From positions 1 through 64,000 of the forward strand of contig NGBS01001182.1 in assembly GCA_002245135.1 (NCBI GenBank): a stretch of DNA of 64,000 nucleotides. The letters are read 5' to 3'. Positions 7,972 through 57,117 of the stretch are shown here, one piece after another; within the stretch, counting starts at the first letter, position 1; each line of letters begins with the position of its first letter. The position numbers and the translations under genes are program-made. The notes beneath the pieces are model-generated. The model saw only the letters and a program-made list of their open reading frames with translations. It made no database searches and was not told the DNA's origin. This DNA comes from Proteromonas lacertae. Its lineage: Eukaryota.

Positions 7972-10900
7972 ATGTCAGTATATACTTATTATTTTACATC
8001 TATTTCATAGAGGTTCATTATCCTTGCTGTTATTTTAGCATTTGCATCAATCGCTGTTGCTCAGGATCAAAAGTATTTTTAATTTTTATCATTCAATAGA
8101 ATGAACTTTGGTGGAGTAAAATTGGAAAGATCAGCTGATTTAAAGTCGAATATTGCTTTAGGAAAGATCACTTATGATAATTGGGATAAATGTGCAGAAG
8201 AGAAAGCTCATTTCTTAATAATTTGTAAATTTGTTGATCATATTCCAGAAGAACGAGATTTCCATATTGAGAATTACGCTTGGGTTGAGTGTGAAGGAAA
8301 TAAGATAAATATAACTCAAAAAGGTCGAAAAGATAATCTTTTCTCTTGTGAATTAATCCACAATGAAGGTCGAAAACAATATGATATGAAATACAAATCT
8401 CTTCCTTTGTTATCAAAAGAATATGTAATAGAACGAGATGAAGATTTATCCAAATACCATGTTCGAAACAATTTAGCTTTAAACATGCCAGACTGTGATG
8501 CTGAGAAATCTAACTATGAATTATACTGTGGTTTCTTTACTGATGTAGTAAAATCTGAAGAAGTGAAAAAATCCGAAAATAAACGAGAAATAACTGGTGA
8601 TAAAACTCCTTTATCATTCTCTTCTAGTGGTATAGAAGATCATTATATAACATGTTATATATATCGATCATCTGATGGTAAAATAATCGATACTTACAGT
8701 TCTGGTTCACCTAGTTTAAATATTGAGAATTGGTCAATGAAGATAGGAAAAGACTTAAGTAAATATGAATTGCGAGGAGATAATCGATTAGAATGGAAAA
8801 CATGTAATATGAACAATGAAGTAATGGACTTTAGAATAACTTGTGGATTCTATAAAGATGTTCCAAGTCCATCTGATTTGCGAAATAGTTGGGAAATGGA
8901 TATGGAATTAGAATGTGGTGGTTGGCCTTGGCAAGTGATGTGGACAAAAGATGCTTCTTACAAATACTGGGGATGTATGACCTATGATGGAAAAGATAAA
9001 GCTGTAGCTGATTTAAAATATGTTGAAGTACCTAGTTTGATAATGCCAAATGCTGATTCAATTGTAGAGAAAGATAATAAATGGTATGTAAAAGATAAAT
9101 TACAATTTAAATGGACTAAATGTGAAACAGAACATGATGAATATGGTTATGTATGTGAATTCTTCAAGAATATTCCAACATATGAAGAATTAATAGAAAA
9201 GAAAGATAAGATCGGTAATATAAACTGTGTTGAAAACTCAATTGAAGATACATCTGATAATTTAAGTGAAGGATATTTAGTATGTGGAATATTGAGAAGA
9301 TCAACCAATGATGTAATATCAATGGAATATATAAGTAAGAAAAGTATTGATATTCAAGAAATATCCATGTATAAAGATGATAATAAGATCTATGCAAATG
9401 GTGATATAAGATTGAATTGGGCTAAATGTGAAAATGAAAAGAATGATTATGAATTGATTGTAAACTTTTTTGATCATTCTCCCTCTGTAGATGAAGATTG
9501 GTCAGGTAAAAGTATTGAAATAAGCTGTGGTAAAACCAAAGTTGATCATGAATATACCTCTGATTTAAAGAAGATTCACTTTGTAGTAAAATTGGTAAAG
9601 AAAGATAACAAGATAGTATATGATGTAGAATCAATAAAACTACCATCATTTGATATAAGTAAATTAAATGTATCTTTCACCAATAAATACCAAAATCATC
9701 GTATTATATCTGGTTTTATTCCAATCGATTTCCCTAATTGTGAACGAAATCATAATCAGTACAGTATAATCTGTGATTTCTCTACAACCATACCAACTTA
9801 TGAATCATTAATGAATGGATTTAAGAATAAGATTGTATGTGATGCTTGGGAATTAGAAGGATTAACATCCGTTGGAACAGATGATAGTGTATTTGGTTGT
9901 ATGATGATTGAAAATGAGAGTAAAAAGATGGTTGAATTAAAATCAATCGATTTCGATCCTCATCAAAGGTATGATTTATTAATTTTTATAATTTAATAGA
10001 ATGAACTTTGGTGGAGTAAAATTGGAAAGATCAGCTGATTTAAAGTCGAATATTGCTTTAGGAAAGATTACTTATGATAATTGGGATAAATGTGCAGAAG
10101 AGAAAGCTCATTTCTTAATAATCTGTAAATTTGTTGATCATATTCCAGAAGAACGAGATTTCCATATTGAGAATTACGCTTGGGTTGAGTGTGAAGGAAA
10201 TAAGATAAATATAACTCAAAAAGGTCGAAAAGATAATCTTTTCTCTTGTGAATTAATCCACAATGAAGGTCGAAAACAATATGATATGAAATACAAATCT
10301 CTTCCTTTGTTATCAAAAGAATATGTAATAGAACGAGATGAAGATTTATCCAAATACCATGTTCGAAACAATTTAGCTTTAAACATGCCAGACTGTGATG
10401 CTGAGAAATCTAACTATGAATTATACTGTGGTTTCTTTACTGATGTAGTAAAATCTGAAGAAGTGAAAAAATCCGAAAATAAACGAGAAATAACTGGTGA
10501 TAAAACTCCTTTATCATTCTCTTCTAGTGGTATAGAAGATCATTATATAACATGTTATATATATCGATCATCTGATGGTAAAATAATCGATACTTACAGT
10601 TCTGGTTCACCTAGTTTAAATATTGAGAATTGGTCAATGAAGATAGGAAAAGACTTAAGTAAATATGAATTGCGAGGAGATAATCGATTAGAATGGAAAA
10701 CATGTAATATGAACAATGAAGTAATGGACTTTAGAATAACTTGTGGATTCTATAAAGATGTTCCAAGTCCATCTGATTTGCGAAATAGTTGGGAAATGGA
10801 TATGGAATTAGAATGTGGTGGTTGGCCTTGGCAAGTGATGTGGACAAAAGATGCTTCTTACAAATACTGGGGATGTATGACCTATGATGGAAAAGATAAA

Positions 10901-13900
10901 GCTGTAGCTGATTTAAAATATGTTGAAGTACCTAGTTTGATAATGCCAAATGCTGATTCAATTGTAGAGAAAGATAATAAATGGTATGTAAAAGATAAAT
11001 TACAATTTAAATGGACTAAATGTGAAGCAGAACATGATGAATATGGTTATGTATGTGAATTCTTCAAGAGTATTCCAACATATGAAGAATTAATAGAAAA
11101 GAAAGATAAGATCGGTAATATAAACTGTGTTGAAAACTCAATTGAAGATACATCTGATAATTTAAGTGAAGGATATTTAGTATGTGGAATATTGAGAAGA
11201 TCAACCAATGATGTAATATCAATGGAATATATAAGTAAGAAAAGTATTGATATTCAAGAAATATCCATGTATAAAGATGATAATAAGATCTATGCAAATG
11301 GTGATATAAGATTGAATTGGGCTAAATGTGAAAATGAAAAGAGTGATTATGAATTGATTGTAAACTTTTTTGATCATTCTCCCTCTGTAGATGAAGACTG
11401 GTCAGGTAAAAGTATTGAAATAAGCTGTGATAAAACCAAAGTTGATCATGAATATACCTCTGATTTAAAGAAGATTCACTTTGTAGTAAAATTGGTAAAG
11501 AAAGATAGTAAGATAGTATATGATGTAGAATCAATAAAACTACCATCATTTGATATAAGTAAATTAAATGTATCTTTCACCAATAAATACCAAAATCATC
11601 GTATTATATCTGGTTTTATTCCAATCGATTTCCCTAATTGTGAACGAAATCATAATCAGTACAGTATAATCTGTGATTTCTCTACAACCATACCAACTTA
11701 TGAATCATTAATGAATGGATTTAAGAATAAGATTGTATGTGATGCTTGGGAATTAGAAGGATTAACATCCGTTGGAACAGATGATAGTGTATTTGGTTGT
11801 ATGATGATTGAAAATGAGAGTAAAAAGATGGTTGAATTAAAATCAATCGATTTCGATCCTCATCAAAGGTATGATTTATTAATTTTTATAATTTAATAGA
11901 ATGGATTTTAGTAGTTTTGCTCTTTCAAGAACATCAGATTTAAAAACAATTAAAGCTGCTGGAAAGATTACTTATGTAAATTGGCCAAACTGTACTGCAG
12001 AAAAATCCCATTTCTTAGTATTATGCAAATTCTTAGATCATGTTCCTAAAGAAACAGATTTTCATATCGAAGGTTATCAGAAAGTAGATTGTGATGGAAA
12101 TGTATTTAATGTGTCAACTACTGTAAAAGCAAATTCTGTATTTGCTTGTGAACTGATGCAAAAAGAGAATAGAAAACAATATGATATGAAATACAAATCT
12201 GTTCCAACATTATTAAAAGAATATAAAGTAAAGAGAGAAGAAGACTTTTCCAAATTCAAAGCTGAAGGTATGTTAGGTTACACTTGGCCAGATTGCGATT
12301 TAGAAGTTCATAATTATGAATTATTCTGTGGAATATTCGACAATATTCCCGAAACAAATGAAATTCGAAAAGAAGAATATAAACAAGCCATTACTTGCAA
12401 TGGAAATAAGATAAATTTTGAATCTAAAGGTGTTGAAGATCATTATTTGACTTGTTTAATATATCGTAAAACAGATGAGATGGTAATTGATAAAATCAGT
12501 TCAGGAACGCCTAGTTTAAATATTGAGAATTGGTCAATGAAGATAGGAAAAGACTTAAGTAAATATGAATTGCGAGGAGATAATCGATTAGAATGGAAAA
12601 CATGTAATATGAACAATGAAGTAATGGACTTTAGAATAACTTGTGGATTCTATAAAGATGTTCCAAGTCCATCTGATTTGCGAAATAGTTGGGAAATGGA
12701 TATGGAATTAGAATGTGGTGGTTGGCCTTGGCAAGTGATGTGGACAAAAGATGCTTCTTACAAATACTGGGGATGTATGACCTATGATGGAAAAGATAAA
12801 GCTGTAGCTGATTTAAAATATGTTGAAGTACCTAGTTTGATAATGCCAAATGCTGATTCAATTGTAGAGAAAGATAATAAATGGTATGTGAAAGATAAAT
12901 TGCAATTGAAATGGACTAAATGTGAAGCAGAACATGATGAATATGGTTATGTATGTGAATTCTTCAAGAGTATTCCAACATATGAAGAATTAATAGAAAA
13001 GAAAGATAAGATCGGTAATATAAACTGTGTTGAAAACTCAATTGAAGATACATCTGATAATTTAAGTGAAGGATATTTAGTATGTGGAATATTGAGAAGA
13101 TCAACCAATGATGTAATATCAATGGAATATATAAGTAAGAAAAGTATTGATATTCAAGAAATATCCATGTATAAAGATGATAATAAGATCTATGCAAATG
13201 GTGATATAAGATTGAATTGGGCTAAATGTGAAAATGAAAAGAATGATTATGAATTGATTGTAAACTTTTTTGATCATTCTCCCTCTGTAGATGAAGATTG
13301 GTCAGGTAAAAGTATTGAAATAAGCTGTGATAAAACCAAAGTTGATCATGAATATACCTCTGATTTAAAGAAGATTCACTTTGTAGTAAAATTGGTGAAG
13401 AAAGATAACAAGATAGTATATGATGTAGAATCAATAAAACTACCATCATTTGATATAAGTAAATTAAATGTATCTTTCACCAATAAATACCAAAATCATC
13501 GTATTATATCTGGTTTTATTCCAATCGATTTCCCTAATTGTGAACGAAATCATAATCAGTACAGTATAATCTGTGATTTCTCTACAACCATACCAACTTA
13601 TGAATCATTAATGAATGGATTTAAGAATAAGATTGTATGTGATGCTTGGGAATTAGAAGGATTAACATCCGTTGGAACAGATGATAGTGTATTTGGTTGT
13701 ATGATGATTGAAAATGAGAGTAAAAAGATGGTTGAATTAAAATCAATCGATTTCGATCCTCATCAAAGGTATGATTTATTAATTTTTATAATTTAATAGA
13801 ATGGATTTTAGTAGTTTTGCTCTTTCAAGAACATCAGATTTAAAAACAATTAAAGCTGCTGGAAAGATTACTTATGTAAATTGGCCAAACTGTACTGCAG

Positions 13901-16455
13901 AAAAATCCCATTTCTTAGTATTATGCAAATTCTTAGATCATGTTCCTAAAGAAACAGATTTTCATATCGAAGGTTATCAGAAAGTAGATTGTGATGGAAA
14001 TGTATTTAATGTGTCAACTACTGTAAAAGCAAATTCTGTATTTGCTTGTGAACTGATGCAAAAAGAGAATAGAAAACAATATGATATGAAATACAAATCT
14101 GTTCCAACATTATTAAAAGAATATAAAGTAAAGAGAGAAGAAGACTTTTCCAAATTCAAAGCTGAAGGTATGTTAGGTTACACTTGGCCAGATTGCGATT
14201 TAGAAGTTCATAATTATGAATTATTCTGTGGAATATTCGACAATATTCCCGAAACAAATGAAATTCGAAAAGAAGAATATAAACAAGCCATTACTTGCAA
14301 TGGAAATAAGATAAATTTTGAATCTAAAGGTGTTGAAGATCATTATTTGACTTGTTTAATATATCGTAAAACAGATGAGATGGTAATTGATAAAATCAGT
14401 TCAGGAACGCCTAGTTTAAATATTGAGAATTGGTCAATGAAGATAGGAAAAGACTTAAGTAAATATGAATTGCGAGGAGATAATCGATTAGAATGGAAAA
14501 CATGTAATATGAACAATGAAGTAATGGACTTTAGAATAACTTGTGGATTCTATAAAGATGTTCCAAGTCCATCTGATTTGCGAAATAGTTGGGAAATGGA
14601 TATGGAATTAGAATGTGGTGGTTGGCCTTGGCAAGTGATGTGGACAAAAGATGCTTCTTACAAATACTGGGGATGTATGACCTATGATGGAAAAGATAAA
14701 GCTGTAGCTGATTTAAAATATGTTGAAGTACCTAGTTTGATAATGCCAAATGCTGATTCAATTGTAGAGAAAGATAATAAATGGTATGTGAAAGATAAAT
14801 TGCAATTGAAATGGACTAAATGTGAAGCAGAACATGATGAATATGGTTATGTATGTGAATTCTTCAAGAGTATTCCAACATATGAAGAATTAATAGAAAA
14901 GAAAGATAAGATCGGTAATATAAACTGTGTTGAAAACTCAATTGAAGATACATCTGATAATTTAAGTGAAGGATATTTAGTATGTGGAATATTGAGAAGA
15001 TCAACCAATGATGTAATATCAATGGAATATATAAGTAAGAAAAGTATTGATATTCAAGAAATATCCATGTATAAAGATGATAATAAGATCTATGCAAATG
15101 GTGATATAAGATTGAATTGGGCTAAATGTGAAAATGAAAAGAGTGATTATGAATTGATTGTAAACTTTTTTGATCATTCTCCCTCTGTAGATGAAGACTG
15201 GTCAGGTAAAAGTATTGAAATAAGCTGTGGTAAAACCAAAGTTGATCATGAATATACCTCTGATTTAAAGAAGATTCACTTTGTAGTAAAATTGGTAAAG
15301 AAAGATAGTAAGATAGTATATGATGTAGAATCAATAAAACTACCATCATTTGATATTGGTAGTTTAGATTTCTCATTTACCAATCAGTATTATAATCACA
15401 GAATAATCTCTGGTTTTATTCCAATCGATTTCCCTAATTGTGAACGAAATCATAATCAGTACAGTATAATCTGTGATTTCTCTACAACCATACCAACTTA
15501 TGAATCATTAATGAATGGATTTAAGAATAAGATTGTATGTGATGCTTGGGAATTAGAAGGATTAACATCCGTTGGAACAGATGATAGTGTATTTGGTTGT
15601 ATGATGATTGAAAATGAGAGTAAAAAGATGGTTGGATTAGAATATGTCGAACTAGCAGGATTAATAATGGATGAGATAAAAATTAAGCATGCTGATAATA
15701 ACAAAATCACAGTGAATGGTTTATTAAAATACAAATTAGGAAAAGATGCCAAGGCTGAAGATTTCCATTATGAATGTAAATTATCAAATGAACTTCCAAC
15801 TCCATCATTATTCGATTATGAAAAGAGTGAGGTAATAAATGTAGAAGGAAATGAAGTAAACTTCTTTGAAGAATCTAATGAATTCTTTGGTTGTATTTTA
15901 TATCGAGTAAATGACAAAGGAATAATCGATTTACAATATAAAGAATTACCTGAATTCAATGTAGAACATTTACATTTAGAACCGAATAGAAATAGCCATG
16001 TATGGATTCCAGAAGGTGATATAACATATAAATGGTTTAGTTGCGGAATTAATAAAGATAAATTCGAATTAGCTTGTGAATACAGTGATAATGAACCAAG
16101 TTCCGTGAATTTGGACAAAGCTAGTAAATTTGATATTGTTTGTAGTGGAACAAATCTTACTTCCTTTACTACTGATCTAAATAATGAAGTTTACTTGGGT
16201 TGTTCTTTAGTGTCAAAAGATGATAAAGAAGTTTATGATTTCCACTTCATCAAAGGAAAAGAAAGTCATGATAGTGATTCTTCAAAAGTATGGATGATTG
16301 TTGTTACTTCTGCTTCTTGTGTCATTGCATTCCTTATTATTTTTACATTGGTTTGTTTCTTTGTCAGAAGTATGAATCTTAGAAGAAGAAAGAATTTGGA
16401 TGAAAAGTCTGACATTGCTGCTGAGAAATCATTACTAGCTAATGAGCAAGCTTAA
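7972..16455 (+). CDS. Giant type I membrane/surface protein (~2,776 aa) with ~26 tandem ~104-aa Cys-containing domains
   Basis: Exons 7972-7977, 8011-8072, 8100-9968, 10000-11868, 11900-13768 and 13800-16455 splice in frame; signal peptide MSRFIILAVILAFASIAVAQ; C-terminal TM (VWMIVV...LVCFFV) then basic RRRK. Confidence 0.85.
8100..15634 (+). repeat. Tandem array of four 1,900-bp units (1,869-nt exon + 31-nt intron), arrangement A-A-B-B
   Basis: Unit ATGs at 8101, 10001, 11901, 13801; near-identical over the 3' ~1.26 kb; the first 609 nt differ between units 1/2 and 3/4. Confidence 0.97.
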
Positions 16456-19071: not shown

Positions 19072-22000
19072 TTATTCAGATATGCCAAATGCTTCTTTTA
19101 TAATCTGTCTGTTTGGATTACTGAAATCTTTTTCATAATGATATGCTTTTTGACAAATTTCATTAATTTGATCATATTTTGATGCAAAGATGTTATATAA
19201 CTTCTCTTTAATAATCTCAATCAACCCACTCTCTTCTGATATTTGACTATTCACTCTACTCAACAATTTATCAACACTTTTATATAAATTCCTTTCACTA
19301 ATTGTGACATTCTACAAAATATTAATTATGTATATCATTATACTTTTATAAATTTTGCTTTCTGTATGTGATATTGTAATTCATCATATCCTTTTGTATG
19401 AATATGTAACAAAGCTTCACTTAAAGTAGATAATTGATTTTCAAATTGATCATTTAATAAAGTATCACAATATTCATTTAGTGATTTCTCAAACATAGTT
19501 TCAGCTTGATTTATATGATCTTTTAATAATTCATATTTCCTTACACTCATAGAAGCGAAAAAGAAATAATAATTCTCAAGCCTAAAGATTTGAGAATATT
19601 TAGGATTAGTATGACATAACATTTCAAGATGTGTGAATAGTTTTAATATTACTGTAGCGTATACATCTTCTAAGATTGTTGTATTGTGATTGGATGCGAC
19701 ATTGGCAGCACATTGAATATAGTAAAAAATAATAATTAAAGAAAATATTATTATTATATATATTTAAAAAAAGGGATATATCACAAAATATTGGCATTTT
19801 TCTAAGTGATATTAATATATGGCATTTACTAATATCTGGTTTTTGACTATCCATCCAATTACTCTAATAAATAAATAGAAATAGAAATAGAAATAGAAAT
19901 AGAAATAGAAATAGAAATAGAAATAGAAATAGAAAATAGAAATAGAAATAGAAATAGAAATAGAAATAGAAATAGAAATAGAAATAGAAATAGAAATAGA
20001 AATAGAAATAGAAATAGAAATAGAAATAGAAATAGAAATAGAAATAGAAATAGAAATAGAAAAAATAGAAATAGAAATAGAAATAGAAATAGAAATAGAA
20101 ATAGAAATAGAAATAGAAATAGAAATAGAAATAGAAAAATAGAAAAATATAATATAAATACAACTGAAGTAATATGCGATTTAATATCTTGACTCAATTT
20201 CAACTGTAATGACTCCATAATTGTCTGAATAAACTTATTATCTTTAGTTTTCTCTAATGTTGACAATATAATCTGAGACATTGAAATCATCTGATAAAAT
20301 GAACGATTATCATTATTTACTACTTTCATCAATTCAGGGAATAATCCATTGAATATTTGACTTAGAATTAATTGAACTGTTTTATTATTAACTACATCTT
20401 GAGGATTTAATCGAACATTTTGAATATTTCTTTTGGCTTTGATATTCTTATAATCTGATTTCTGTTTTAAATTTTCGAGAGTTTCGTCAACTCCACCACC
20501 ACCACAAAAGAAGTGGATCGAAAATGTTCGAACACCATTTACCAACGGAACTATAAAATCAGTTGATTTTCGAAATGCGGCAGCTACACTAATTTTTCCA
20601 CTATCTCCTTTGTAATATAAATAATATTGTTCTTCTATCATTCTCATTTCATCTTCTTGTCTTCCTAAGTTGCTATTTGCTAAATCTATTAATCTTCCTT
20701 GGCCTTCTTCATTTATACTTACTATATTCCTTTTGGTTGAACTGAAGAACTCTTTTAATGTTTTTGTCATCAAATTGGTCATCTTTTCACAGTAGATTGA
20801 TTGTAATTGTGTAAAGATTTTCATATCTTTCTTTTGAATTATCCATAACAATGGAGCTAATAATATCATTTGATTATGAACACTTTGAGGCGTACAGTTA
20901 TCTTTTGAAAATTCATTATTCAAAGTCTTCAACAAAAAATCTGCCAATTTTGCAAAAAATGATTTGATTGTTTCATCTAACTTCAACTGTTGTTCTTTAA
21001 TTGCTTTCATGTGTTTAAATGATACTCCATTGTAATCTTCATCACCTAAGCTCTTTAACATTAATAAACCATTGGCACAATGAACTACTTTTTCAATTGC
21101 ACCTTCTGATTGTTTTACTGATTCTTGATCACTAATTCGAGTTCTTTCAGCCTTTTCAACACCTACTGTCATAGCTGTTTCACCATATTTTTTGGCTTCT
21201 TTTATTACATCTAATAATACATCATCGACTGTGTTTAATACATTTACGATATCTTCATCTAAATCTAATCTTTTTACAAAATTCTATAAATAATAAATAA
21301 ATAAATAATAATAATAATAATATATACATTCAATTCTTCACACAACTTCCTTTGATTTTCAATCTGATATTGAATGGCATAATTCTGGCTTGAGATGATA
21401 TTCAAGCCTTGTTTCATTTTAATGTAATGTTCAGATTTAGAGTCTAACCATTGATACATTGCATCTAATTGCTTATCTAATTTATCTAACTGTTTAGTAA
21501 TATCTGTAACTGGACCATCTCGATCTTGCTCCCAATCTACCAGTTTGTTGTATATCATATCTTCATCAGTCTTCACTATTGCATCTAATTGCTTACGTGT
21601 TGATTGTGTAGATAAACCTCTGAATTCTTCAGAATTGAAATACAACTCCAAGTTCATCATTTCACTCTCTGAGGTTAGCATTGACTGAGAAATGTATAAT
21701 TTCTGCATTTCATCATCTTCTTCTTGAGATTGCAAAATTGACAGTCCATTCTGCCCTTCTGAGACTAATAATGGACATTTCTGTGCAAATCCACCTACTC
21801 TTGCTAATACGTTGATTGCACCAATATCAAAACCTGATGTATCGAATGGTGTTAAATATTTTTGAGCTAATTGGTATAATGTCCATACAAACATATTTCT
21901 GAGTTTTTCATTACCTGTTTTGTACATTTCTGGTTTGCCATTAACGAATATTGTGAACATGTCGTCTTTTCCTTGTATATTTTCTATTTTTGATACCATC

Positions 22001-22351
22001 TTCAAGTCTATATGTTTATTATCACTATAATTGAATATTCCTCTTGAAATTGTGACTTTAACGTAATGAAACCATATTTGGTTTTGTATTGTTGGTGAAT
22101 ATGTTCCCATTAATATTTTGACACCTTTATTTTTACCATTTTCTATTTCTTCTACAGGTAACTCAAAGATAACAACTCTCTTTTGTGTAGGATATAATCC
22201 TAAGTTTAATTGATGTCTTATCTTATCACTTTCACACATAGGTGTTAAAACATCAAGAGTTGGTACATTACTATAACCAATTAAAAGAATGATGTTTATA
22301 CCTGATGATTTCAACACCTCTAGGTTGAACTTTAGGCGTTTTTGTTGCCAT
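19072..22351 (-). CDS. SEC3: Exocyst complex component Sec3/EXOC1-like
   Basis: N-terminal PH-like region, coiled coil with YQIENQRKLCEEL, helical C-terminus with RLENYYFF; GT-AG introns plus one AT-AC intron (19722-19779). Confidence 0.75.
19875..20146. repeat. (ATAGAA)n microsatellite, ~43 copies, inside a Sec3 intron (19864-20161)
   Basis: Directly visible hexamer tract. Confidence 0.98.
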
Positions 22352-22460: not shown

Positions 22461-24406
22461 ATGTCTGTATTCTTATTCATTTTATTGTTTTTCTTTATAG
22501 GAAGCAGAGAAAAGAAAAAGGGATGAACAGGAAGATGAATCATCCGATGATGAAGTTGGTCCAATGCCAATATCAAAGGATCTTACAACAGAAGCACCTA
22601 AAAGAAAGAAACATAAGGGTATTTTACATAATATATAATTTTATAATATTAATAGTATTGAAAGGTGCAAAAGTATTACTTGATGCTTTACCAAGCGCAG
22701 ATATGTATGAAAAGAGTTATATGCATCGTGATTACATAATGCACACACTAATCACACCATGTACTGACTTTTTAATAACAGCCAGTAAAGATGGTGATAT
22801 TAAATTTTGGAAAAAGATGTTAGAAGGAATAGAATTCGTCAAACATTATCACGCGCATATGCAAGCAATCACAGGAATAGCGTGTACACCAGACGGTCAA
22901 AAGATTTGCAGTATTTCTGAAGATAAATCAATCAAAATATATGACGTTTTAACATTCGATATGATCAATATGTTTAAAATAAATTTCACTCCTTATGCCG
23001 TATGTTGGGTACCAACATCAACACAATTATTATTGGCAATCTCTGATAAAGATAATGGAAAAATTAGTTTATTTAAATATGAAGAAAAAAATAAAGTAGT
23101 TAAAGAGGTGAATAATCATTGTTCTCCTGTTAGTTTAATGTGTTATAATGCCTATGCTAAATGTATAATATCTTGTGATATAGAAGGAGTTATAGAATAC
23201 TGGTCAGTAGATAATAATAATGAATTACCATTCAAATATATCAGTTTTAAATATAAAAGTGAAACGGATTTATTTTCATTAATGATTTCAAAATCTCAAG
23301 CTACTAGTTTATCTTGTAGTCACAATGGAAAACTATTTGCAATAACTGATAAAGATGGACAAATCCGAATATTTAAATTTAAAACAGGTAAAATATATCG
23401 ACAATACGATGAAAGTTTGAAAAAAATAGAAGAAGATCAATTAAGTGGCAAATTAAAATTAGATGATATAGATTTTGGTAGAAGACAATCTTTAGAAAAA
23501 GATTATTTAAAATCAGAAGTATCAGCTGCTAGTAATGTCGTATTTGATGAAAGTGATAATATAATAATATATCCAACTTTAATGGGTATAAAGATAGTAA
23601 ATATACTGGAAAATAAAGTGATGAAAGTATTAGGAAAAGTAGAAAATGAAAGGTTTTGTTCTATTTCTTTATTTCAAGGAATTGCGAAGGTGAATACTCA
23701 GATTAAAGGTGAAAAAATTGATGATTCAAATAATCATAAAATTCCAGAACCAGATCCAACTCTCTTTTGTTGTTCTTTTAAAAAGAAAAGATTTTATTAT
23801 TTTACTAAAAGAGAGCCTGAAGAAATCAATGAAAATGAAACTGTAGAAGAGAATGAAGGAAGAGATGTGTTTAATGAAAAACCAACTGAAGATGAATTGC
23901 AATATATAGCCATGAATTCAAAAGAAGCAGTGAAATATGGAAATAAAGCCGTTATACATACAACCTATGGTGATATTGAGATAGAATTATACCCCCGAAA
24001 AACCCCCAAAACAAACGAAAATTTTTGTGGCTTGGCTCGAAAAGGATATTATGATAAAGTGATTTTTCATAGAGTTATTCGTAATTTTATGATTCAAACA
24101 GGTGATCCAAATGGTACAGGTACTGGTGGTGAAAGTTTGTGGGGTGGATACTTTGAAGATGAATTAAGATCAGATTTAACACATGATGCTTTTGGTGTTG
24201 TTTCTATGGCTAATGCAGGTCCAAATACGAATGGGAGTCAGTTTTTTATTACTACTGTCCCTTGTCCACATTTGAATGGCAAGCATACTGTGTTTGGGAA
24301 GTTAATTAAAGGTGATAAAGTAGTGAGAAGAATTGAAGGTGTGAAAACGGATAAAAATGATAAACCGATTGAAGATATTGAGATAATTAATATTGATATC
24401 TATTAA
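22461..24406 (+). CDS. PPWD1: WD40-repeat cyclophilin (peptidyl-prolyl isomerase)
   Basis: LPSADMYEKSYMHRD, GIEFVKHY, DFGRR, FHRVIRNFMIQTGDP, SMANAGPNTNGSQFFIT; first exon ATG TCT|GT. Confidence 0.97.
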
Positions 24407-24540: not shown

Positions 24541-26276
24541 ATGCCTTTAGATGAAGTAGATGATGATGATGATGATAAGGCCATCTCAAATGAACATATT
24601 TTAGGTATATTTGTGTGATTTATCGTTTAGGCTCCCAATTAATTGATGCATGTAAAAAAGGTAATTTTGATGAATGTGAAAGATGTCTTGGAGAAGGTGC
24701 AAATCCAAGTTATCCAGATGAAAGAAAATGGGATCCTTTATTATGGGCTTCTTATTATGGTTATGCAAAAGTATTAATATTCCTCAATTATTCTAATATA
24801 GATATGTCAATTATTAATAGCAAAAGGTGCAACAACAGCATATGTTAGTAAAGTCCATGGTCTAAAAGCAGATAAAGGATCCGATCCTTACGTATATTCC
24901 ACAGTAAATCGAATTCCAATAAATTCTCCACTCCATTGGGCTGCATTTAATGGTCATCTTGAAACAGTAAATATTCTATTAAAAGAAGGGTATGAAGTAA
25001 GTGATCGAGATTCATGTGGTAATACTGCACTACATTTAGCAGCAACTAATGGTCACATAGATGTAATTGAATCACTATTAGCAATTGGAATGGATGTTGA
25101 GTTAAAAAATAATCATGGAAATACTCCATTAGATTTAGCAACTGATGAAAGAACAAGGAAATTTTTATTAAATTTAATTCCATCGAGAAAGTTGTCTATC
25201 ATGTGAAAAAGAATTCGATTTTAAGAATTGGAAATATTACTGTAGTTTATGTAAAAGTGGATTTTGTGGAGATTGTACAATTCTAGAAGAAAGAGTAAGT
25301 AAAAAAGATAAAGAGTTATTTATATATAAACGATATTGCAGACAATGTCTTTCAGAATTGAAGTTTAGTGAAGAAGAAGTAAGAAGGACATTAGTGCCAG
25401 AAGGTAGAAACTTAGAGGAGAATGATATACCGATTTTAGAGGAAGTAATTAATAAAGCAATTAATAAAGATGCTGATAATGTATTGGTAGATGAGAGTCA
25501 TAAAGCGTATAATAGTTTGTTGGCTTCAGTTGCATTGGAGAAAGTAATAGATAAAGTTAATCAATCAAGGTATACATAATAGTTTTATAATTCTTTCTCA
25601 TTTTTCTTTTTTTAATATTTATTTTTTATATATTCTGTTTAGACCAGTTACTGCATCACCACTAATCCTTCAATTAGAACGAGAAATAAATAACTGTAAA
25701 GTCGTAGGAATTAGTGAAAATCTAATGAAGAAATCAACCAACTTATTAACAGCCTTACAATATGAAAAGAAACTTTGTGGATCTTTAGAAATTTGTAGTG
25801 CAATAAAATGTGGTACAAATAACGATCAAAGTGATATAAACCGATTAGGAAGTCTATTAAATAGTTCAGCCAGTTATCCAGTTCATGTTGAAACATTCCA
25901 GAAATGTCAAAGTCTTTTCAATCGTCTAACTAGTGAAGTTGAATTAGAGAATGCATTGAAAGAACCAACTGTTCAAGAAGGTGAAACTCCAGAATTACCA
26001 ACAACTTATACATTTGAAGATGGAACAACAGTCGAGTCATTATTAGAAAGCTTGAGAAAGAGACATGAGAGATTAGAAAAGGCTGTGAGTGATGGTGAAA
26101 CGAATAAAGTGAATGAAGAATTATTGGCTAAAAGTCAAGAAAGTTTGAAGAAATTGACTGCTGATTTAGAGACTGAAGAAGCTGCTGAAGCTGAAAGACA
26201 AAGAATTGCTGAAGAGAAGAGATTGAGAGCTTTAAGGAGAAAGAAGAGAGGGAAGAAGAAGTCAAAAACTCAATAA
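24541..26276 (+). CDS. Ankyrin-repeat protein with FYVE-like zinc finger and C-terminal coiled coil
   Basis: PLLWASYYG, SPLHWAAFNGH, GNTALHLAATNGH, GNTPLDLA; CxxC pairs at ~25195-25350 (after a frameshift); basic C-terminus. Confidence 0.8.
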
Positions 26277-26425: not shown

Positions 26426-29023
26426 TTACAATTCATCAAATTTTCTATACATATCTTCAATCTCAGCCTTTCTGTGACTTCTTGATCTATGCCATAAGAA
26501 TAATCCAACAACTACAATCACTGCAGCAATCACAATACAAACGATTGTGATTGTAGCAGTAGTTGTATCTGGTTTTGGAGTATCTGTTGGATCAGGAACT
26601 CTATTAAATGGTGTTGGATCTTGTTCAGGAATTGGATAAGGTTTATTCTTTGTTCCCCAAGCATGTAATGTATTTTCATCAGCTTTAATTTCATCAATAA
26701 CAAATTTTGGACCGAGTTCCTTTAGGATAGATATAAACTGTTTGATCTTTAGCTAATTCGACACTCCAATAACCAGCTTTAACATGAACTATTTTTACTG
26801 TTGCTGGTGTATGATCGAATTCACTTGTTAAATCATCCACTCTGATCTTTAATGGTGATCCAAATAATGATGTTATACTTATCCAATTGGTTTTACCTAA
26901 TTGTAAATGACCAGAAACACTAAATCCACCTTCAGCTTGTAATTGATAGAATGTTGTATTTTCTAAAGCTTTTGGTCTTGTTGGGAAAACAGTGAACATA
27001 TCCTTCATCAGATCTTAATAACATATATTGTAAAGCAAAATGCCATTCCAAATGGAGATTCATTCACTGGAGATTCACTTAGCTTCCCAGTAGAATGTAG
27101 CTTGTCCAACTCGATGACATTTCCAAGCTTCTAGTAATGTTTCCCAAGCTTTTTCATCTCTACCAGGTATTAATTGATAAAATACAGAAGCCATTACAAT
27201 ACTAAAACCAATATCAGTTACTCCAAAACTTGTCCAATGATCAATTGTTTTAGTCATTACTTCTGCTAATTCTGGATTTCCTTCGTATGTTTGTGTTTTG
27301 AACGGATATACCATAAAGATATGGCTCCAATGTCGATGTTGGCTTGCTAATTTCGTATCTTTGCCTATCAAATATCCTTCTTTTTCATCTTCATGATATG
27401 GAATTAAATTATCCATTAAGTCTTTACATCTTTCAATCATTTCTTCATCTGCTACTTTTAACATATCAATAATTTTAGTTAAATGACTACAGCTCCATCT
27501 GATTATTGATAAATCCCAATGTTGTATCTTCACAACTTGTAATATTCAGGACTATATGTAGATGGAAAATGATATTTACCATCCTTATCTTTAGTAGCAT
27601 AATGATAATAGAAATTAGTAGCTCTTCTAAGTGTAGGATATAAAACATCTCTTAATAATGTCTCATTATGTGTATATTGATAATGTAACCATAATATTTG
27701 ACAAACCCAATTCAAGTTTCCTGTTATTACCCACCTCTTGCTTTGACTACATCACCTGCTGTTCCCCATGATTGACTATCTAATTTCCAATCCCAACCTA
27801 ATTCAGTACCTAAAGCACCAGAATCACCTCTAAATTTCTCTTCAACACTTTCAGTTATTGCATCTTTATTTTTATCCATAAAGTGTAAAAATGATAAGAA
27901 TTGATCAGCATGATTAGCTCCCCATAAAGGCCAAGCTGCCATTTGAACATTTAAATCCATATGGTAATCACTCCAGTATGACTCAGTATACCAAGGACCT
28001 AATAAATCATAAGCCCAACAGTTATCTTCACTTTGACATCTTGTTGCTGATCCAACTTTATACATTTGAATCCACCAAAAACTTTCAGATTGTTTATGTG
28101 GAATAGAGATGAAAGATTTCTTATAATAATCATGCCACCATTGTTTATGTTCAATATAATGCTCACCTACATCAGTTCGTATATAATCTTGAAGTATTTT
28201 TATACCACCATCTATTGCATTTACATCTCTCTTATTACATTCCATGTTACTTGATTATCAATTGTTACATAATATGTAATATGATGGTCTTTATGATAAG
28301 TGATATTCGTCATAACCATTGAAAAATCACCACCAGCTAACATCACTTTTTCACAGTAATAGAAATATCTTCCACCTCTTATTTCATCTTTACAAACTGC
28401 ATCTGGATTGAATTTATAGTTATTCAACATTCTCTTGGCAAATGGTCTGCTCTTGGATGGTATTCGATTGGAACTATCTTTTCTTCACCTTCACTTTGCA
28501 TATCAATTACAAAGACATGATGTAAAGAATCTGTGAAAATTGTGTACCATATTTTACCTTTTGTGGTGACTAATTCACCTTCGATTTGTGCATCGTATAA
28601 GTTGATTCTGGCATTGCCTGATACTATATCTCCTGCTGGACGGATGTAGAAATAACCAACAGCCAATCTAAAACGATCAACTTCACTATTTAGATTATAA
28701 GATAAGTTGATTAATATTTATACGGATTGCCAGTTAGCTAAATCAGATCCTTTCATTCGATGATCCCACACATCAGCTCTACCAATATCGATTCTCATAA
28801 TACAATTGTCTGAATCATTCAAATATGTCAATATTCCTAGATTACCATTACCCACAAATGGAGCATCATACCACTTTTTATACCATGTTGAATTATCTGA
28901 AGCTTCAAACAACCATATAGGATCAGCCTTTTTCAAAAATCCCCTCCAATCAACTTTAACGTCTAGCTGAGCATTACAGTGTAATGCAAAGGCTAGAACA
29001 ACTAAAATCAAAAGATATTTCAT
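26426..29023 (-). CDS. GH95-like alpha-L-fucosidase with signal peptide and C-terminal TM anchor (frameshifted in this assembly)
   Basis: PFVGNGNLG, WSDYHMDLNVQM, PSTYSPEY, HRHWSH, LQAEGGFSVS; N-terminus MKYLLILVVLAFALHCNA; hydrophobic ITIVCIVIAAVIVVVGLFLW near the C-terminus. Confidence 0.8.
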
Positions 29024-47350: not shown

Positions 47351-47935
47351 ATGTATTCCAAGTCTTTTTATGTTGCTAAAATTATTGTATTTTTATGTCT
47401 ATTTTACAATGTCTATCCTTTATCGCTAAGATACACTCAAGAAGTAAAGCCACCCTTCACATTAAATATCACAGTTACAGGATCATTAAAAGTAAATGCA
47501 TTTAGTAGATTATTTAGAGTAAAAGTTCTATATTCTGAGAGTGAGAAATGTTTTGAAGAAAAAAAGAAATCAGTGTATTTAATCGATTGTAAATCATCTT
47601 CTTCCAAACCTAAAGAAAAAGACTTTACTTTTAAAAACCCAATGGTTGTTAATTGTGTTGGTGAAAATATAGATAAATATGAAGGTAGTACTGATGATTA
47701 TTACTTCTCCTGTGCATTGAAAAATAATTCGACACAGCAGATAGTTGATATAGGAACATATCAAATTCCAAATTATGTCTGGAGTGGAATATTCATGAAA
47801 TTGGCATTAGTATTTATAATAATAAATGCATGTTGGTTGTTTAAATGTCAAGCATCCTTGTTTTCAAGAAATGAAGAAACTCCATCAACTGGAAATACTG
47901 TAGGTTATGCTCCAGTGCCAACAGATGCTAATTAA
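47351..47935 (+). CDS. Small type I membrane protein with one copy of the ~104-aa Cys domain found in the giant surface protein
   Basis: Signal peptide, C-C-C-C spacing and motifs matching the repeat domain, TM at the C-terminus. Confidence 0.7.
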   Translation: MYSKSFYVAKIIVFLCLFYNVYPLSLRYTQEVKPPFTLNITVTGSLKVNAFSRLFRVKVLYSESEKCFEEKKKSVYLIDCKSSSSKPKEKDFTFKNPMVVNCVGENIDKYEGSTDDYYFSCALKNNSTQQIVDIGTYQIPNYVWSGIFMKLALVFIIINACWLFKCQASLFSRNEETPSTGNTVGYAPVPTDAN

Positions 47936-53320: not shown

Positions 53321-56300
53321 CTATTCTTTATAACTACAATCTCCTTTCATTCCACTTGTTAAAGTGAATCTTTTATCAAAGCCATCATCATTATTACTAA
53401 TACTTGCTCCTATTTTATCACCTATCTTTTGGTCTTTCATATTTAATATTTGAACTACTAAATCCATTATTACATTTACATACTCTTGTGACTTTATTAC
53501 ATTCACCATTTCCACCACATTCTTCACATTTAATTACATTAACATCATTATCTACTAATTTGAGTTTAATATCATTATCATCTACTGTACCTTCACCTTC
53601 TTTTATTAATTTCAATCCAAGTGGAGATTTTAAATCTTCAGCACAATACTAAAATAATAATAATAATAACAAGATATACTCCTGGTAAATAAATTCTATA
53701 ACTATTAACAACATTATCACCACTTCCATCTACAGTTGGTCTATCACTACCACCACATATTGAATATAATCTAGTTGTTTCTGAATAATCAATTGTTGGT
53801 AAAGTATTAACAGCTGGGTTATTTGTAATAATAACATCACTTCTCATTATATTTATTCTTTCCAACATCTTTCTCCAATATTTTGGTGTATATCCTGATC
53901 TTAATTTTCTACTTGTTTCTTGATGTCTTTTTGCATCAGTAAATTCAAATCGATAAACTGTTTTAGGATTTTCAGGTGGATTTGTTGGACATTTTAATAC
54001 ATAATATGGAGGCGTTTTTGTAACTTTATGATTAGAATCAATTCCCAATTGGACCAAATGGACAAGTTGTACCACTACAATCAGTTCCACCATATAATGA
54101 ACCGCAATCACATTTCATATTTATATAACCAAATATATCATTACCTTCTAATTTTGGTTCTTTTACTTGCATTCCATTTTTACATCTCATATTCAATTTT
54201 TCACAATTTTCTCCTACAAATATTCCACTTTTATCACATGTACATCTTCCATTATTACATTCTCCTTGATTACTACATTCAGTCAATCCATGAACTATAT
54301 TATTATTTATTCCAAACCAACTATATCCAAATGGACATATTGATGTGGATGTTAAATCTGGTTCAGTTATTAATGCAGAGGTAAATTGACAATTTTTATC
54401 ATTATTTTTTCTTCCATATCCTGATTTACACTCACATTTACCACTCTCTCTATTACATGTTCCATGACCAGAACATTCAGATATTACTACTGAATTACCA
54501 AATACACTAATATCAGTAAATACATTCTTATTTACTGTTATTGTATTACCATCAACTGTATCTACTATTGATTCTCCATTAGTCACAGCTGTCACTGTAG
54601 CACTATTAACAATAGATAATTATTTATATATACTTTGGATTATTGGTAAATGTGAATTTGTATGTTTTTCCTCCAGTAAGTTTATTACTACTATCAGCTG
54701 ATAAATCTACACAACTTTCACTACATAAACTTATAGTAGTAATTACTTTTGTTTTATCCTACAAAATAAAATAATCATATTTATACTTTAATTGCAGTTA
54801 TAATTTCAGATATTGCTTTACCAGTTATATCAACCACTTTTCTAATACCATTATTCAATATTGTTATAAAATTTGCACTTTTACTATCTTCTATAGTAAA
54901 TGTTGATGTTGAAGATGATTTATCAGTAGAATATTCAATTTTATTATCTTTAACAACTGATTCACCACTAATAACATCAGTTACTTTAGCACTAATCATA
55001 ATAAACACAGAATCATATACTATGGATCTAATGGGAAAGTGAATTTATATTCTGTTCCAGTAGTAAATGGTGTTGTTTGAAGTTTATCCAATTACTACTA
55101 TCAGTACAAGTTTTGATGCATCACATTTATATATTTTCACCATTTTCACTATATTTGAATTCTATTAATATTGTAATGATAATAAATACAATAATAGATG
55201 AAATAATCTTATCTACTGAATCATCTTTTGATATAGCGACTTCTATTTCAGAAAATTCATTTTCTTCTATTTTTTATTTACATCAGTGATAAGTGTAGAT
55301 AATGAGCTGGAATATGATATAGTATTTTGAATTCTTATCATTATTGCTGTTTTTCCACTTGGTATAGTAAATTGAGAATATGCTTCTGTGTAATATTTCT
55401 TAGCATCCTGAAGAAGTGGATCAGGAGTTGTAGTAATTGCTTTCCCATCTGATATTTCTGTAACTTTTGTTCTATTATATAATAAATATAATTCATACTT
55501 GGAATTTAACAAAAATATGAATCTATATTTACTACCATCTACATCACTTCCACCAATTAATTTATTATCATTATCATCACTTATATCTACCCACTTATTA
55601 GTCTCATATTTATATATTCTAACATCACTAACTACACTTTTTTCCTATAAACATATATTATTATTTTTATACTTTTATCTTTGTAATAATGGCAGATATA
55701 GAAGATAAACCTAAAATATCAACATCAGCTGGAGTAGAATCTTTTGTTAGTATTAAAAATGCTGCAGTTTCGTCTTTTGGTATTGTAAAGTCTGAGGTAG
55801 ATATTTTATTTGATGATTCAATATTATCTTGAATAACAGAATCACTATCACCAGTAATATCAGTTAATTCAACACTATTAACATTATATATTAATTAATA
55901 CTTTGAATCTGATGGGAATATGAATCTATATTTAGTATTAGCAGTAAGTGTCTCACTATCACTAGCACTTATATCAACCCATTTATCAGTATTATATTTA
56001 TATATTCTAACATCACTAACTCCACCATTATTCTATTATATTATCATAATAATTAATGTTATACTGTAATAGCTGTGACAATAGTAGATATAGTCGTTGT
56101 ACTTGAAATATCAACATCTGATTGAGGAGTTGTATCTTTTGTTATTTTGATCTTCATATTGGAAGGAATTGCATCTGATTTAGTAGTAAAGTCATAAGTA
56201 TTAATATCTCCATTAGTAATACCACTATTACTATCTATAATAAAATCACCTTCTATTACCTCACTCACTACAATCCTAAATAACAATAGCAATATTCTTA

Positions 56301-57117
56301 TATACTCTTTATTTAATGGAAATGTAAATCTATATGTTTTTCCACCTACAAGTTTACCATCACTATCACTAATATCTTCACAAACTTTATCACATTCACT
56401 TACTTTAATCAATTTCACATCTATTTTTCTCTATCAATATTATATATATTATTATTTTAATACTTTTATATTTTCTATTACTTCAAGTATTGTTTTATCT
56501 TTTACAATAACATCATTTGCTTTTTCATCTTTTTTTATTTTCATTAATAATGCCTTTTTACTTAGTAGATATTGTAAATTGTGAATAATGAATCTCCATA
56601 TCTGATATTGTTATATTCACACCAAATGGACATGTCTTTTCTACACCATTCTCACAATTAACTCCACTATATCCCTTATTGCATTTACAACCATATATTC
56701 TCTTATCATTCTTATCATTTCTTCCTGATAATACATCAAGTAATACATGTTCACCATTTGGACTTTTCACAATCATCTTTATTAGTAATATTAAAAGAAT
56801 CACAACTTTCACCATAAAAACCAGGATCACATTCACATTTTCCAAGTTTACAACTACCTCTACCACTACATTCTACATCATTTTTGGAAGTATTAAACCA
56901 ATCTATTCCTTTTGGACATTCATGTTCAGAACAATCCATACCTCCAAAACCTTGAAAACAGTCACAAACGCCTTTTCTGCATATTCCTTTATTACTATAT
57001 TATTAAATAAACGAAATATTGATTATACCTACAGTCATTTAAACATATTGTATCAGGTGCACCATGTATTTCACATAGTAATACTACAACTATCAATATT
57101 ACTTTTAAATATCTCAT
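53321..57117 (-). CDS. Secreted multi-EGF protein resembling stramenopile mastigoneme/Sig1-type proteins, with five internal ~100-aa repeats
   Basis: Signal peptide MRYLKVILIVVVLLCEIHG; CP.G..WF....ECS..G.C..G.C.C..G..G..C modules; C-terminal KGDCSY. Confidence 0.7.

What the first reader, a model, noticed from the sequence alone, without database searches (positions are those of the whole stretch)
8101..12509. Variable/constant cassette design: two alternative N-terminal blocks on a constant backbone
The first 609 nt (203 aa, two domains) are type A in units 1-2 and a strongly diverged type B of identical length in units 3-4. Sequence switches abruptly to near-identity at CCTAGTTTAAATATTGAG (8710/12510). 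Within the divergent block a 29-nt patch (RKQYDMKYKS, 8372-8400) is identical in A and B. Unit 4 has a ~50-nt divergent patch (15357-15408) inside otherwise identical sequence. Inference: segmental gene conversion that homogenises some domains and keeps others variable, as in antigenically variable surface proteins.
Basis: partly seen in the sequence, partly recalled or inferred. Interest (0 to 1): 0.7.

Follow-up and report, generated by a model that had tools for sequence, protein, structure and literature searches.

The report
Patchily homogenised repeats, giant surface protein
The four near-identical 1.9-kb repeats are likely exons of one giant membrane-anchored surface protein of a single-celled eukaryote, and the two versions of their first third are likely leftovers of an old internal duplication whose remainder was later made uniform by recombination: a known process, seen here in an undescribed protein family.

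Summary
The sequence facts are all confirmed, but the units are not separate genes with alternative N-termini. Identical 31-nt phase-2 introns join them into one predicted 2,776-aa type I membrane protein: signal peptide, 26 Ig-like beta-sandwich domains of a family without a Pfam match, transmembrane helix. A relative appears to encode a single 8-domain version whose domains pair position by position with ours; A and B are sister copies. The end of units 1-3 is a diverged copy of the signal-peptide exon and its intron, the scar of an old six-domain tandem duplication. A versus B (37% of bases differ, silent sites near saturation, dN/dS about 0.4) and the unit-4 patch (19 of 52) show that old divergence; domains 3-6 were later homogenised by gene conversion or unequal crossing-over and the array grew to four units. 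Whether selection keeps A and B apart is open. No reads or genome were available, so splicing and copy number are unverified. The scan's index showed no related earlier finding.

The parts
7972..16455 (+). Predicted single gene, 6 exons, 2,776 aa, about 322 kDa; type I membrane protein with 26 Ig-like domains
   Evidence: Removing five GT..AG introns gives one open frame of 8,331 nt with a single terminal stop and hydrophobic segments only at the two ends. No RNA evidence.
7972..8072 (+). Exons 1-2 (7972-7977, 8011-8072) with a 33-nt intron (7978-8010): predicted signal peptide
   Evidence: Kyte-Doolittle 19-residue windows up to 2.3 over residues 1-23 of the model
8073..8099 (+). Intron 2, 27 nt, phase 2; homologous to the inter-unit introns
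   Evidence: 23 of the last 25 nt up to the first ATG match the inter-unit context
8101..8709 (+). Block A, copy 1 (domains 1-2)
8372..8400 (+). 29-nt run identical in A and B, at the end of domain 1: short conversion tract or conserved motif
   Evidence: 56 of 20,000 codon shuffles reach it; the 10-residue identical run alone is reached by 1,535 of 20,000
8710..9968 (+). Homogenised block, copy 1 (domains 3-6)
   Evidence: 99.4% identical to copies 2 and 3
9942..9999 (+). Duplication scar: diverged copy of the end of the signal-peptide exon plus intron 2 (8046-8099), ending in the 31-nt inter-unit intron 9969-9999; repeated at 11842-11899 and 13742-13799
   Evidence: Local alignment score reached by 0 of 2,000 shuffles for exon plus intron, 3 of 2,000 for the exon part alone
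10001..10609 (+). Block A, copy 2; two silent differences from copy 1
10610..11868 (+). Homogenised block, copy 2
11901..12509 (+). Block B, copy 1 (paralogue of A, internal in the protein)
12510..13768 (+). Homogenised block, copy 3
13801..14409 (+). Block B, copy 2, identical to copy 1
14410..15634 (+). Homogenised block, copy 4
15357..15408 (+). Unhomogenised relic at the start of domain 6 in unit 4
   Evidence: 19 of 52 sites differ, 12 of them at third codon positions; same level as A vs B
15635..16263 (+). Unduplicated end of domain 6 and domains 7-8
   Evidence: Single copy in the window; continuous with domain 6 as in orthologue piece P0002
16288..16365 (+). Predicted transmembrane helix, followed by a cytoplasmic tail of about 29 residues and the stop at 16453-16455
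   Evidence: Hydrophobicity; helix in the otherwise poor single-sequence model
47351..47935 (+). One-domain member of the same family elsewhere in the window; not a donor of A or B
   Evidence: Profile hit E 1.5e-9; own branch in the domain tree; 75% and 71% identical to P0160 and P0161

Best explanation
The four 1.9-kb units are predicted exons of one gene for a likely 26-domain, membrane-anchored Ig-like surface protein, and blocks A and B are likely the unhomogenised remains of an old internal duplication whose domains 3-6 were later made uniform by recombination between the copies. Steps: (1) an ancestral 8-domain gene (inferred from the orthologue); (2) tandem duplication of the six N-terminal domains, from inside the signal-peptide exon to the end of domain 6 (the scar is in the sequence); (3) long independent divergence of domains 1-2 and of a 52-nt stretch of domain 6 (divergence measured, age inferred); (4) gene conversion or unequal crossing-over between the copies of domains 3-6 (near-identity and incompatible SNP patterns are seen, the mechanism is inferred); (5) recent growth from two to four units (inferred). 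A and B most likely stay different because at 63% identity they no longer pair well for recombination, both under ordinary purifying selection. The protein likely works as a long adhesive or coat-forming rod (roughly 100 nm if each domain is about 4 nm; my estimate from general knowledge), and the recombination chiefly changes its length.
For: Splicing: one open 8,331-nt frame from signal peptide to transmembrane helix; all four introns before the units are phase 2; as separate genes ORFs 1-3 would lie 4 nt apart with no signal peptide or anchor. 24 other GTA..TAG donor sites of 25-60 nt join long ORFs elsewhere in the window (no shuffle control). Scar: 0 of 2,000 shuffles. Orthologue: clusters of P0009 (domain 1), P0001 (domains 2-5) and P0002 (domains 6-8 plus anchor) share contig lengths 5652, 6371 and 6711. 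In the domain tree 7 of 8 positions pair with the orthologue's domain (domain 7 unresolved); A1+B1 100/98, A2+B2 100/94, each sister to the orthologue's domain (97/84, 93/89). Old age: dS 0.84-1.18, dN/dS 0.34-0.42 (LWL85, NG86); of 98 same-residue degenerate codons 67 are identical against 59.9 expected at full randomisation; patch 19/52 vs A/B 223/609. Recombination: the 8 informative SNPs in the uniform block support all three possible pairings of four units (3, 4 and 1 sites), and 12 of 13 SNPs are transitions. Fold: single-domain model pLDDT 90.6; top matches are Ig-like/fibronectin-type sandwiches, best Z 7.8, rmsd 3.0, 95 aligned.
Against: Splicing and copy number are predictions; no reads or genome could be laid on the locus. 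A genome-wide count of AT-rich GTA..TAG elements did not exceed shuffles (31 nt: 15 vs 12.0). The orthologue's single-unit layout rests on matching contig lengths, not on seen DNA, and short-read contigs can collapse repeats. The neutral-escape part is the weakest: divergence does not fade towards the boundary (37 differences in the last 100 nt, 35 in the first); the main boundary and the patch start fall at domain linkers (by eye, untested); and domains 1-2 are somewhat further from the orthologue than domains 3-6 (34-35% vs 43%, p 0.04-0.13), all of which selection would also give. The incompatible SNPs could come from polishing a mixed sample. The ML and YN00 dN/dS estimates failed or were unstable. 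The fold match is at a level common for unrelated sandwiches; adhesion is untested.
Confidence: 0.7

Rival explanations
1. Same gene and history, but selection keeps A and B different: they bind different ligands or present different epitopes, and conversion tracts that enter domains 1-2 are purged, leaving an island of divergence as in the red/green opsin pair.
For: Sharp edge at the domain 2/3 linker and no gradient of divergence; both versions kept in two copies; domains 1-2 slightly faster than 3-6 (longest paths among paired domains); A2 has lost one of four cysteines. The pattern is the signature described in PMC3924837 (passage).
Against: dN/dS about 0.4 with silent sites near saturation; domains 1-2 no faster than unduplicated domains 7-8; the 52-nt patch, mostly silent changes, escaped to the same degree; both divergent stretches lie towards the ends of the duplicated block.
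Confidence: 0.25
2. The array is partly an assembly product: a real two-unit gene (A-C-B-C-tail) inflated to four units, or SNPs mixed between haplotypes during polishing.
For: 1,733 nt are identical across the unit 2-3 / 3-4 overlap and 903 nt between units 1 and 2, too long for short reads; alternating 13|24 SNP patterns could be two haplotypes; no reads to check.
Against: The junction inter-unit intron + A exists only in a gene with a second A; every unit has its own SNP combination and 12 of 13 SNPs are transitions. The old duplication scar cannot be made by an assembler, so A and B as mere alleles is unlikely (about 0.05).
Confidence: 0.15
3. Programmed or contingency antigenic variation: A and B are exchangeable cassettes placed on a constant backbone from donor copies.
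For: Predicted surface protein; equal-length blocks with a sharp switch; possibly a gut-dwelling lineage (unproven).
Against: Only two versions, copies nearly invariant; B internal; no donors in the window; orthologue alleles vary little, and in domain 5 (9 sites) about as much as in domain 1 (9 sites in 87 residues), with none in the 80 residues seen of domain 2 (90% clusters cannot hold deeply diverged alleles).
Confidence: 0.04
4. Four separate tandem genes, each starting at its own ATG.
For: Each unit is an ATG-to-stop ORF.
Against: 4-nt spacing, stops lying inside intron-shaped elements, signal peptide only upstream of unit 1 and anchor only after unit 4.
Confidence: 0.03

Closest known systems
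Concerted evolution of intragenic repeats in giant proteins, e.g. spider aciniform spidroin AcSp1 (PMC3563967, abstract seen)
   Same: Long coding repeats more than 99% identical within one gene, ascribed to intragenic recombination plus selection
   Different: Here each repeat is an intron-bounded symmetric exon of six folded domains, and a third of the repeat exists in two 63%-identical versions
Islands of divergence in duplicates under gene conversion, e.g. human red/green opsins (PMC3924837, passages and section 2.2 seen)
   Same: Sharp high-divergence region inside otherwise homogenised paralogues; both the neutral end of conversion and selection are described as causes
   Different: Within one gene; the island is two whole domains; no function or selection is shown
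Plasmodium falciparum DBLMSP/DBLMSP2 (PMC10919680, abstract seen)
   Same: Two deeply diverged versions of one domain of a surface protein, tied to conversion between paralogues
   Different: There they are allelic lineages segregating in a population across two genes; here both sit in tandem in one gene and no population data exist
Ig-like / fibronectin type III beta-sandwich repeat surface proteins (fibrillar adhesins, cell-adhesion molecules; function recalled from general knowledge)
   Same: Signal peptide, chain of about 100-residue beta-sandwiches, single transmembrane helix, short tail
   Different: No Pfam or PDB sequence match; four-cysteine pattern with likely 1-3 and 2-4 disulfides; best structural Z only 7.8
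Cassette antigenic variation (trypanosome VSG, Borrelia vlsE, Neisseria pilE; recalled, not from a call)
   Same: Segmental recombination in a surface-protein gene
   Different: No donor archive in the window, no hypervariability between copies, and the uniform part rather than the variable part shows the recent recombination

Membership tests
Intragenic tandem repeats under concerted evolution | Paralogous repeats far more alike than their age allows | tested here: met
   Domains 3-6 99.4% identical while domains 1-2, the patch and the scar of the same duplication are about 63% identical
Intragenic tandem repeats under concerted evolution | Paralogues closer to each other than to the orthologue | tested here: met
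   Domain tree; identity to orthologue 29-49% per domain
Intragenic tandem repeats under concerted evolution | Mosaic, incompatible variants among copies | tested here: inconclusive
   All three bipartitions among 8 informative SNPs, but polishing artefacts cannot be excluded without reads
Selected island of divergence | Sharp divergence peak amid homogenised sequence | tested here: met
Selected island of divergence | Excess amino-acid change or a functional difference at the peak | tested here: inconclusive
   dN/dS 0.34-0.42 overall with near-saturated dS; site-level tests impossible with two sequences
Cassette antigenic variation | Archive of silent donor copies | tested here: inconclusive
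   None in the 64-kb window; no whole genome held
Cassette antigenic variation | Many variants of the variable block among copies | tested here: not met
   Two versions; copies differ at 2 and 0 of 609 sites
Cassette antigenic variation | Switching within a clone or between isolates | not testable with these tools
   No sequencing run was listed
Ig-like beta-sandwich repeat type I membrane protein | Signal peptide, single transmembrane helix, short tail | tested here: met
   Spliced model and hydrophobicity
Ig-like beta-sandwich repeat type I membrane protein | Domains fold as Ig-like/FN3-like sandwiches | tested here: met
   One domain modelled at pLDDT 90.6; most of the 50 listed matches are such sandwiches by my reading of the entry titles, best Z 7.8, none at 8 or more; the other domains are inferred from the alignment
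Named Pfam Ig/FN3/cadherin family | Profile match above the family cut-off | tested here: not met
   0 families for units 1 and 4 at E 0.01; no family shared by more than 3 of 23 aligned domains at E 1

The most novel reading that the evidence does not exclude
Because exons 3-5 are symmetric (1,869 nt, phase 2-2) and every acceptor is in frame with the signal-peptide exon, exon skipping would yield A-tipped or B-tipped isoforms of four lengths, and intron retention would yield secreted truncated forms: a splicing-based surface-variation switch in a tiny-intron protist, with selection keeping the two tips distinct while conversion keeps the stalk uniform.
Probability: 0.07. Interest if true: 0.7.

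Novelty: new member of a known kind. Interest (0 to 1): 0.33.

Why it matters
The process is known, but this is an unusually legible record of it: the duplication breakpoint, the unconverted relics and a likely unduplicated orthologue are all recoverable, so neutral escape from conversion can be tested against selection once isolates are sequenced. It also defines an undescribed Ig-like domain family of surface proteins in a poorly sampled stramenopile-like lineage, and warns that ORF calling splits such genes into false tandem genes.

Tried and rejected
No whole genome is held, so no genome-wide donor search. No sequencing run was listed; this is no evidence either way. Word-indexed protein search with unit 4: 0 of 6,011 candidates. 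Two metagenome scans: 39 and 9 pattern matches, none a relative. Single-sequence fold of unit 4: pLDDT 33, unusable. Foldseek against PDB: no match at E 0.001. PDB sequence profile: 4 weak hits, best E 0.037, disregarded. ESM Atlas: best scores 0.78 and 0.81, leads only. Survey of intron-shaped elements against shuffles showed no excess. YN00 failed and ML dS (5-28) was unstable. Earlier findings: none by place; one by sequence sharing 4 of 180 words, unrelated. Lineage: the neighbouring PPWD1 falls with stramenopiles in a 25-row tree chosen from 120 listed hits (SH-aLRT 96, long branch, biased composition, no Blastocystis row available); intron sizes resemble Blastocystis, but the TGTTTGTT motif named in PMC5608401 is not enriched (6 vs 5.5 expected) and the GC content of about 27% lies between the ranges given in PMC10690189, so the genus is not assigned. 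Literature searches listed no paper describing this protein family; the library lacks most subscription papers and I opened no supplements. No complex prediction was run, as no binding partner is claimed.
Full report
Observation. The window is about 27% G+C and eukaryotic (Sec3-like, PPWD1, CEP44-like and filamin-repeat ORFs). Four units of period 1,900 nt start at 8101, 10001, 11901 and 13801.

One gene, not four. ORFs 1-3 end inside an identical 31-nt GT..AG element (9969-9999, 11869-11899, 13769-13799). Removing these and two upstream elements (7978-8010, 8073-8099) gives one frame of 2,776 residues with hydrophobic segments only at the N-terminus and near the C-terminus. The four introns before the units are all phase 2 and exons 3-5 are each 1,869 nt. 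As separate genes the ORFs would be 4 nt apart and lack signal peptides and anchors. Similar small elements join long ORFs at 24 other donor sites in the window (uncontrolled); a cruder count of such elements did not exceed shuffles. Splicing is predicted, not observed. So only the first A block is N-terminal and B is internal.

The protein. Each unit is six domains of about 100 residues; unit 4 adds two more, 26 in all. Non-equivalent domains are 14-28% identical and share four cysteines; paired losses (domain 5 lacks the 2nd and 4th, domain 7 the 1st and 3rd) suggest 1-3 and 2-4 disulfides (inference). No Pfam or PDB sequence match was found. One domain folded from a 23-row alignment gave pLDDT 90.6, mainly beta; Foldseek gave nothing at E 0.001 and the wide structural search gave Ig-like/FN3-like sandwiches, best Z 7.8, rmsd 3.0, 95 aligned, none at Z 8 or more. 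That fixes a fold class, not a family or a function. A long adhesive or coat rod is my inference from the architecture.

Relatives. A search of 1.84 billion representatives gave 11 hits; they and their cluster members are unnamed Logan proteins. P0009, P0001 and P0002 match domains 1, 2-5 and 6-8 plus anchor, and their clusters share contig lengths 5652, 6371 and 6711, which I read as one 8-domain gene split at introns; the DNA was not seen. In a tree of 46 domains, seven of eight positions pair with the orthologue's domain (domain 7 unresolved), and A and B are sisters to the exclusion of the orthologue in both domains. The duplication therefore likely post-dates the split from that relative.

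The duplication scar. The last roughly 27 coding bases of units 1-3 plus the following intron align to the end of the signal-peptide exon plus intron 2 (8046-8099): 0 of 2,000 shuffles reach the score, 3 of 2,000 for the exon part alone. Unit 4 instead runs on into domain 7, as the orthologue does. This locates an old tandem duplication from about 8046 to the end of domain 6. The scar is itself diverged from its source, so an assembler cannot have made it, and a 37% difference between copies needs no appeal to alleles.

Age and selection. A vs B: dN 0.36-0.40, dS 0.84-1.18, ratio 0.34-0.42 (LWL85, NG86); YN00 failed and ML was unstable. Of 98 same-residue degenerate codons 67 are identical against 59.9 expected under full randomisation, so silent sites are near saturation. 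The unit-4 patch has the same divergence, 12 of its 19 changes at third positions: a relic of the same event. Against the orthologue, domains 1-2 are 34-35% identical, domains 3-6 43% (p 0.04-0.13) and domains 7-8 37% (p 0.19-0.82). The 29-nt run is unusual (56 of 20,000 codon shuffles) but was picked after the fact and lies in a partly conserved last strand; a short conversion tract is likely but not shown.

Homogenisation. Domains 3-6 are 99.4% identical among units 1-3. The eight informative SNPs support all three pairings of four units, which a simple series of duplications cannot give; 12 of 13 SNPs are transitions. Recombination between copies is the likely cause; haplotype mixing in assembly is not excluded, since no reads were listed and no genome is held. 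Placing a second A behind the inter-unit intron needs a switch within a 9-nt identical run (23 of 25 matches). Which ancestral copy donated the uniform block cannot be told.

Why A and B persist. PMC3924837 (section 2.2 and passages) describes both routes: conversion ends once divergence disrupts pairing, or selection holds a peak of divergence. Purifying dN/dS, ordinary rates and the equally diverged, mostly silent patch favour escape; the sharp edge at a domain linker without a gradient keeps selection alive at about 0.25. Cassette antigenic variation lacks its marks here: two versions only, near-invariant copies, no donors in the window, and modest allelic variation in the orthologue (limited by 90% clustering).

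Organism. PPWD1 has its best named hits in oomycetes at about 51%, and unnamed relatives at 89% and 69%; a quick tree of 25 rows places it with stramenopiles. Small introns recall Blastocystis (PMC10690189, passages and one section; PMC5608401, passages), but the genus is not assigned, so a host-associated life is only a possibility.

Comparison and verdict. It works like other giant repeat proteins under concerted evolution (PMC3563967, abstract) with an island of divergence, and resembles DBLMSP dimorphism only loosely (PMC10919680, abstract). Exon skipping is reported as uncommon outside animals (PMC6142364, start of abstract in a search listing), which keeps the isoform-switch reading at low odds. 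Five searches listed no description of this domain family. Verdict: real feature, known process, undescribed protein family; new member of a known kind; interest 0.33.

Noticed in passing
window 47351-47935 (+): One-domain, membrane-anchored member of the same Ig-like family, well conserved in unnamed relatives (71-75% identity), whereas the best relative found for the giant gene is about 42% identical
   Followed up: partly
P0003-P0008, P0010, P0011: Further unnamed proteins with 1-7 domains of this family, several with a C-terminal membrane anchor; P0005 has Pro/Thr-rich linkers between domains
   Followed up: partly
window 19873-20137: 44.5 copies of a 6-nt unit read through by the mechanical ORF 19859-21172 (-); likely a long repeat-filled intron in a gene continuing the Sec3-like ORF 21274-22317
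   Followed up: partly
window 22523-24406 (+): Long intron-free PPWD1 (WD40 plus cyclophilin) ORF, used as lineage marker
   Followed up: yes
window 27727-28245 (-) and 25725-26276 (+): Weak, below-cut-off Pfam matches to a GH95 glycoside hydrolase domain and to YceG-like proteins; possible bacterial-type genes
   Followed up: no
window 54607-56402: Diverged internal repeats at about 70% identity; a filamin-repeat ORF lies at 62517-63419 (-)
   Followed up: no
window 8407-8715 (domain A2): A2 has lost the third conserved cysteine but kept its likely partner, leaving a possibly free cysteine
   Followed up: no
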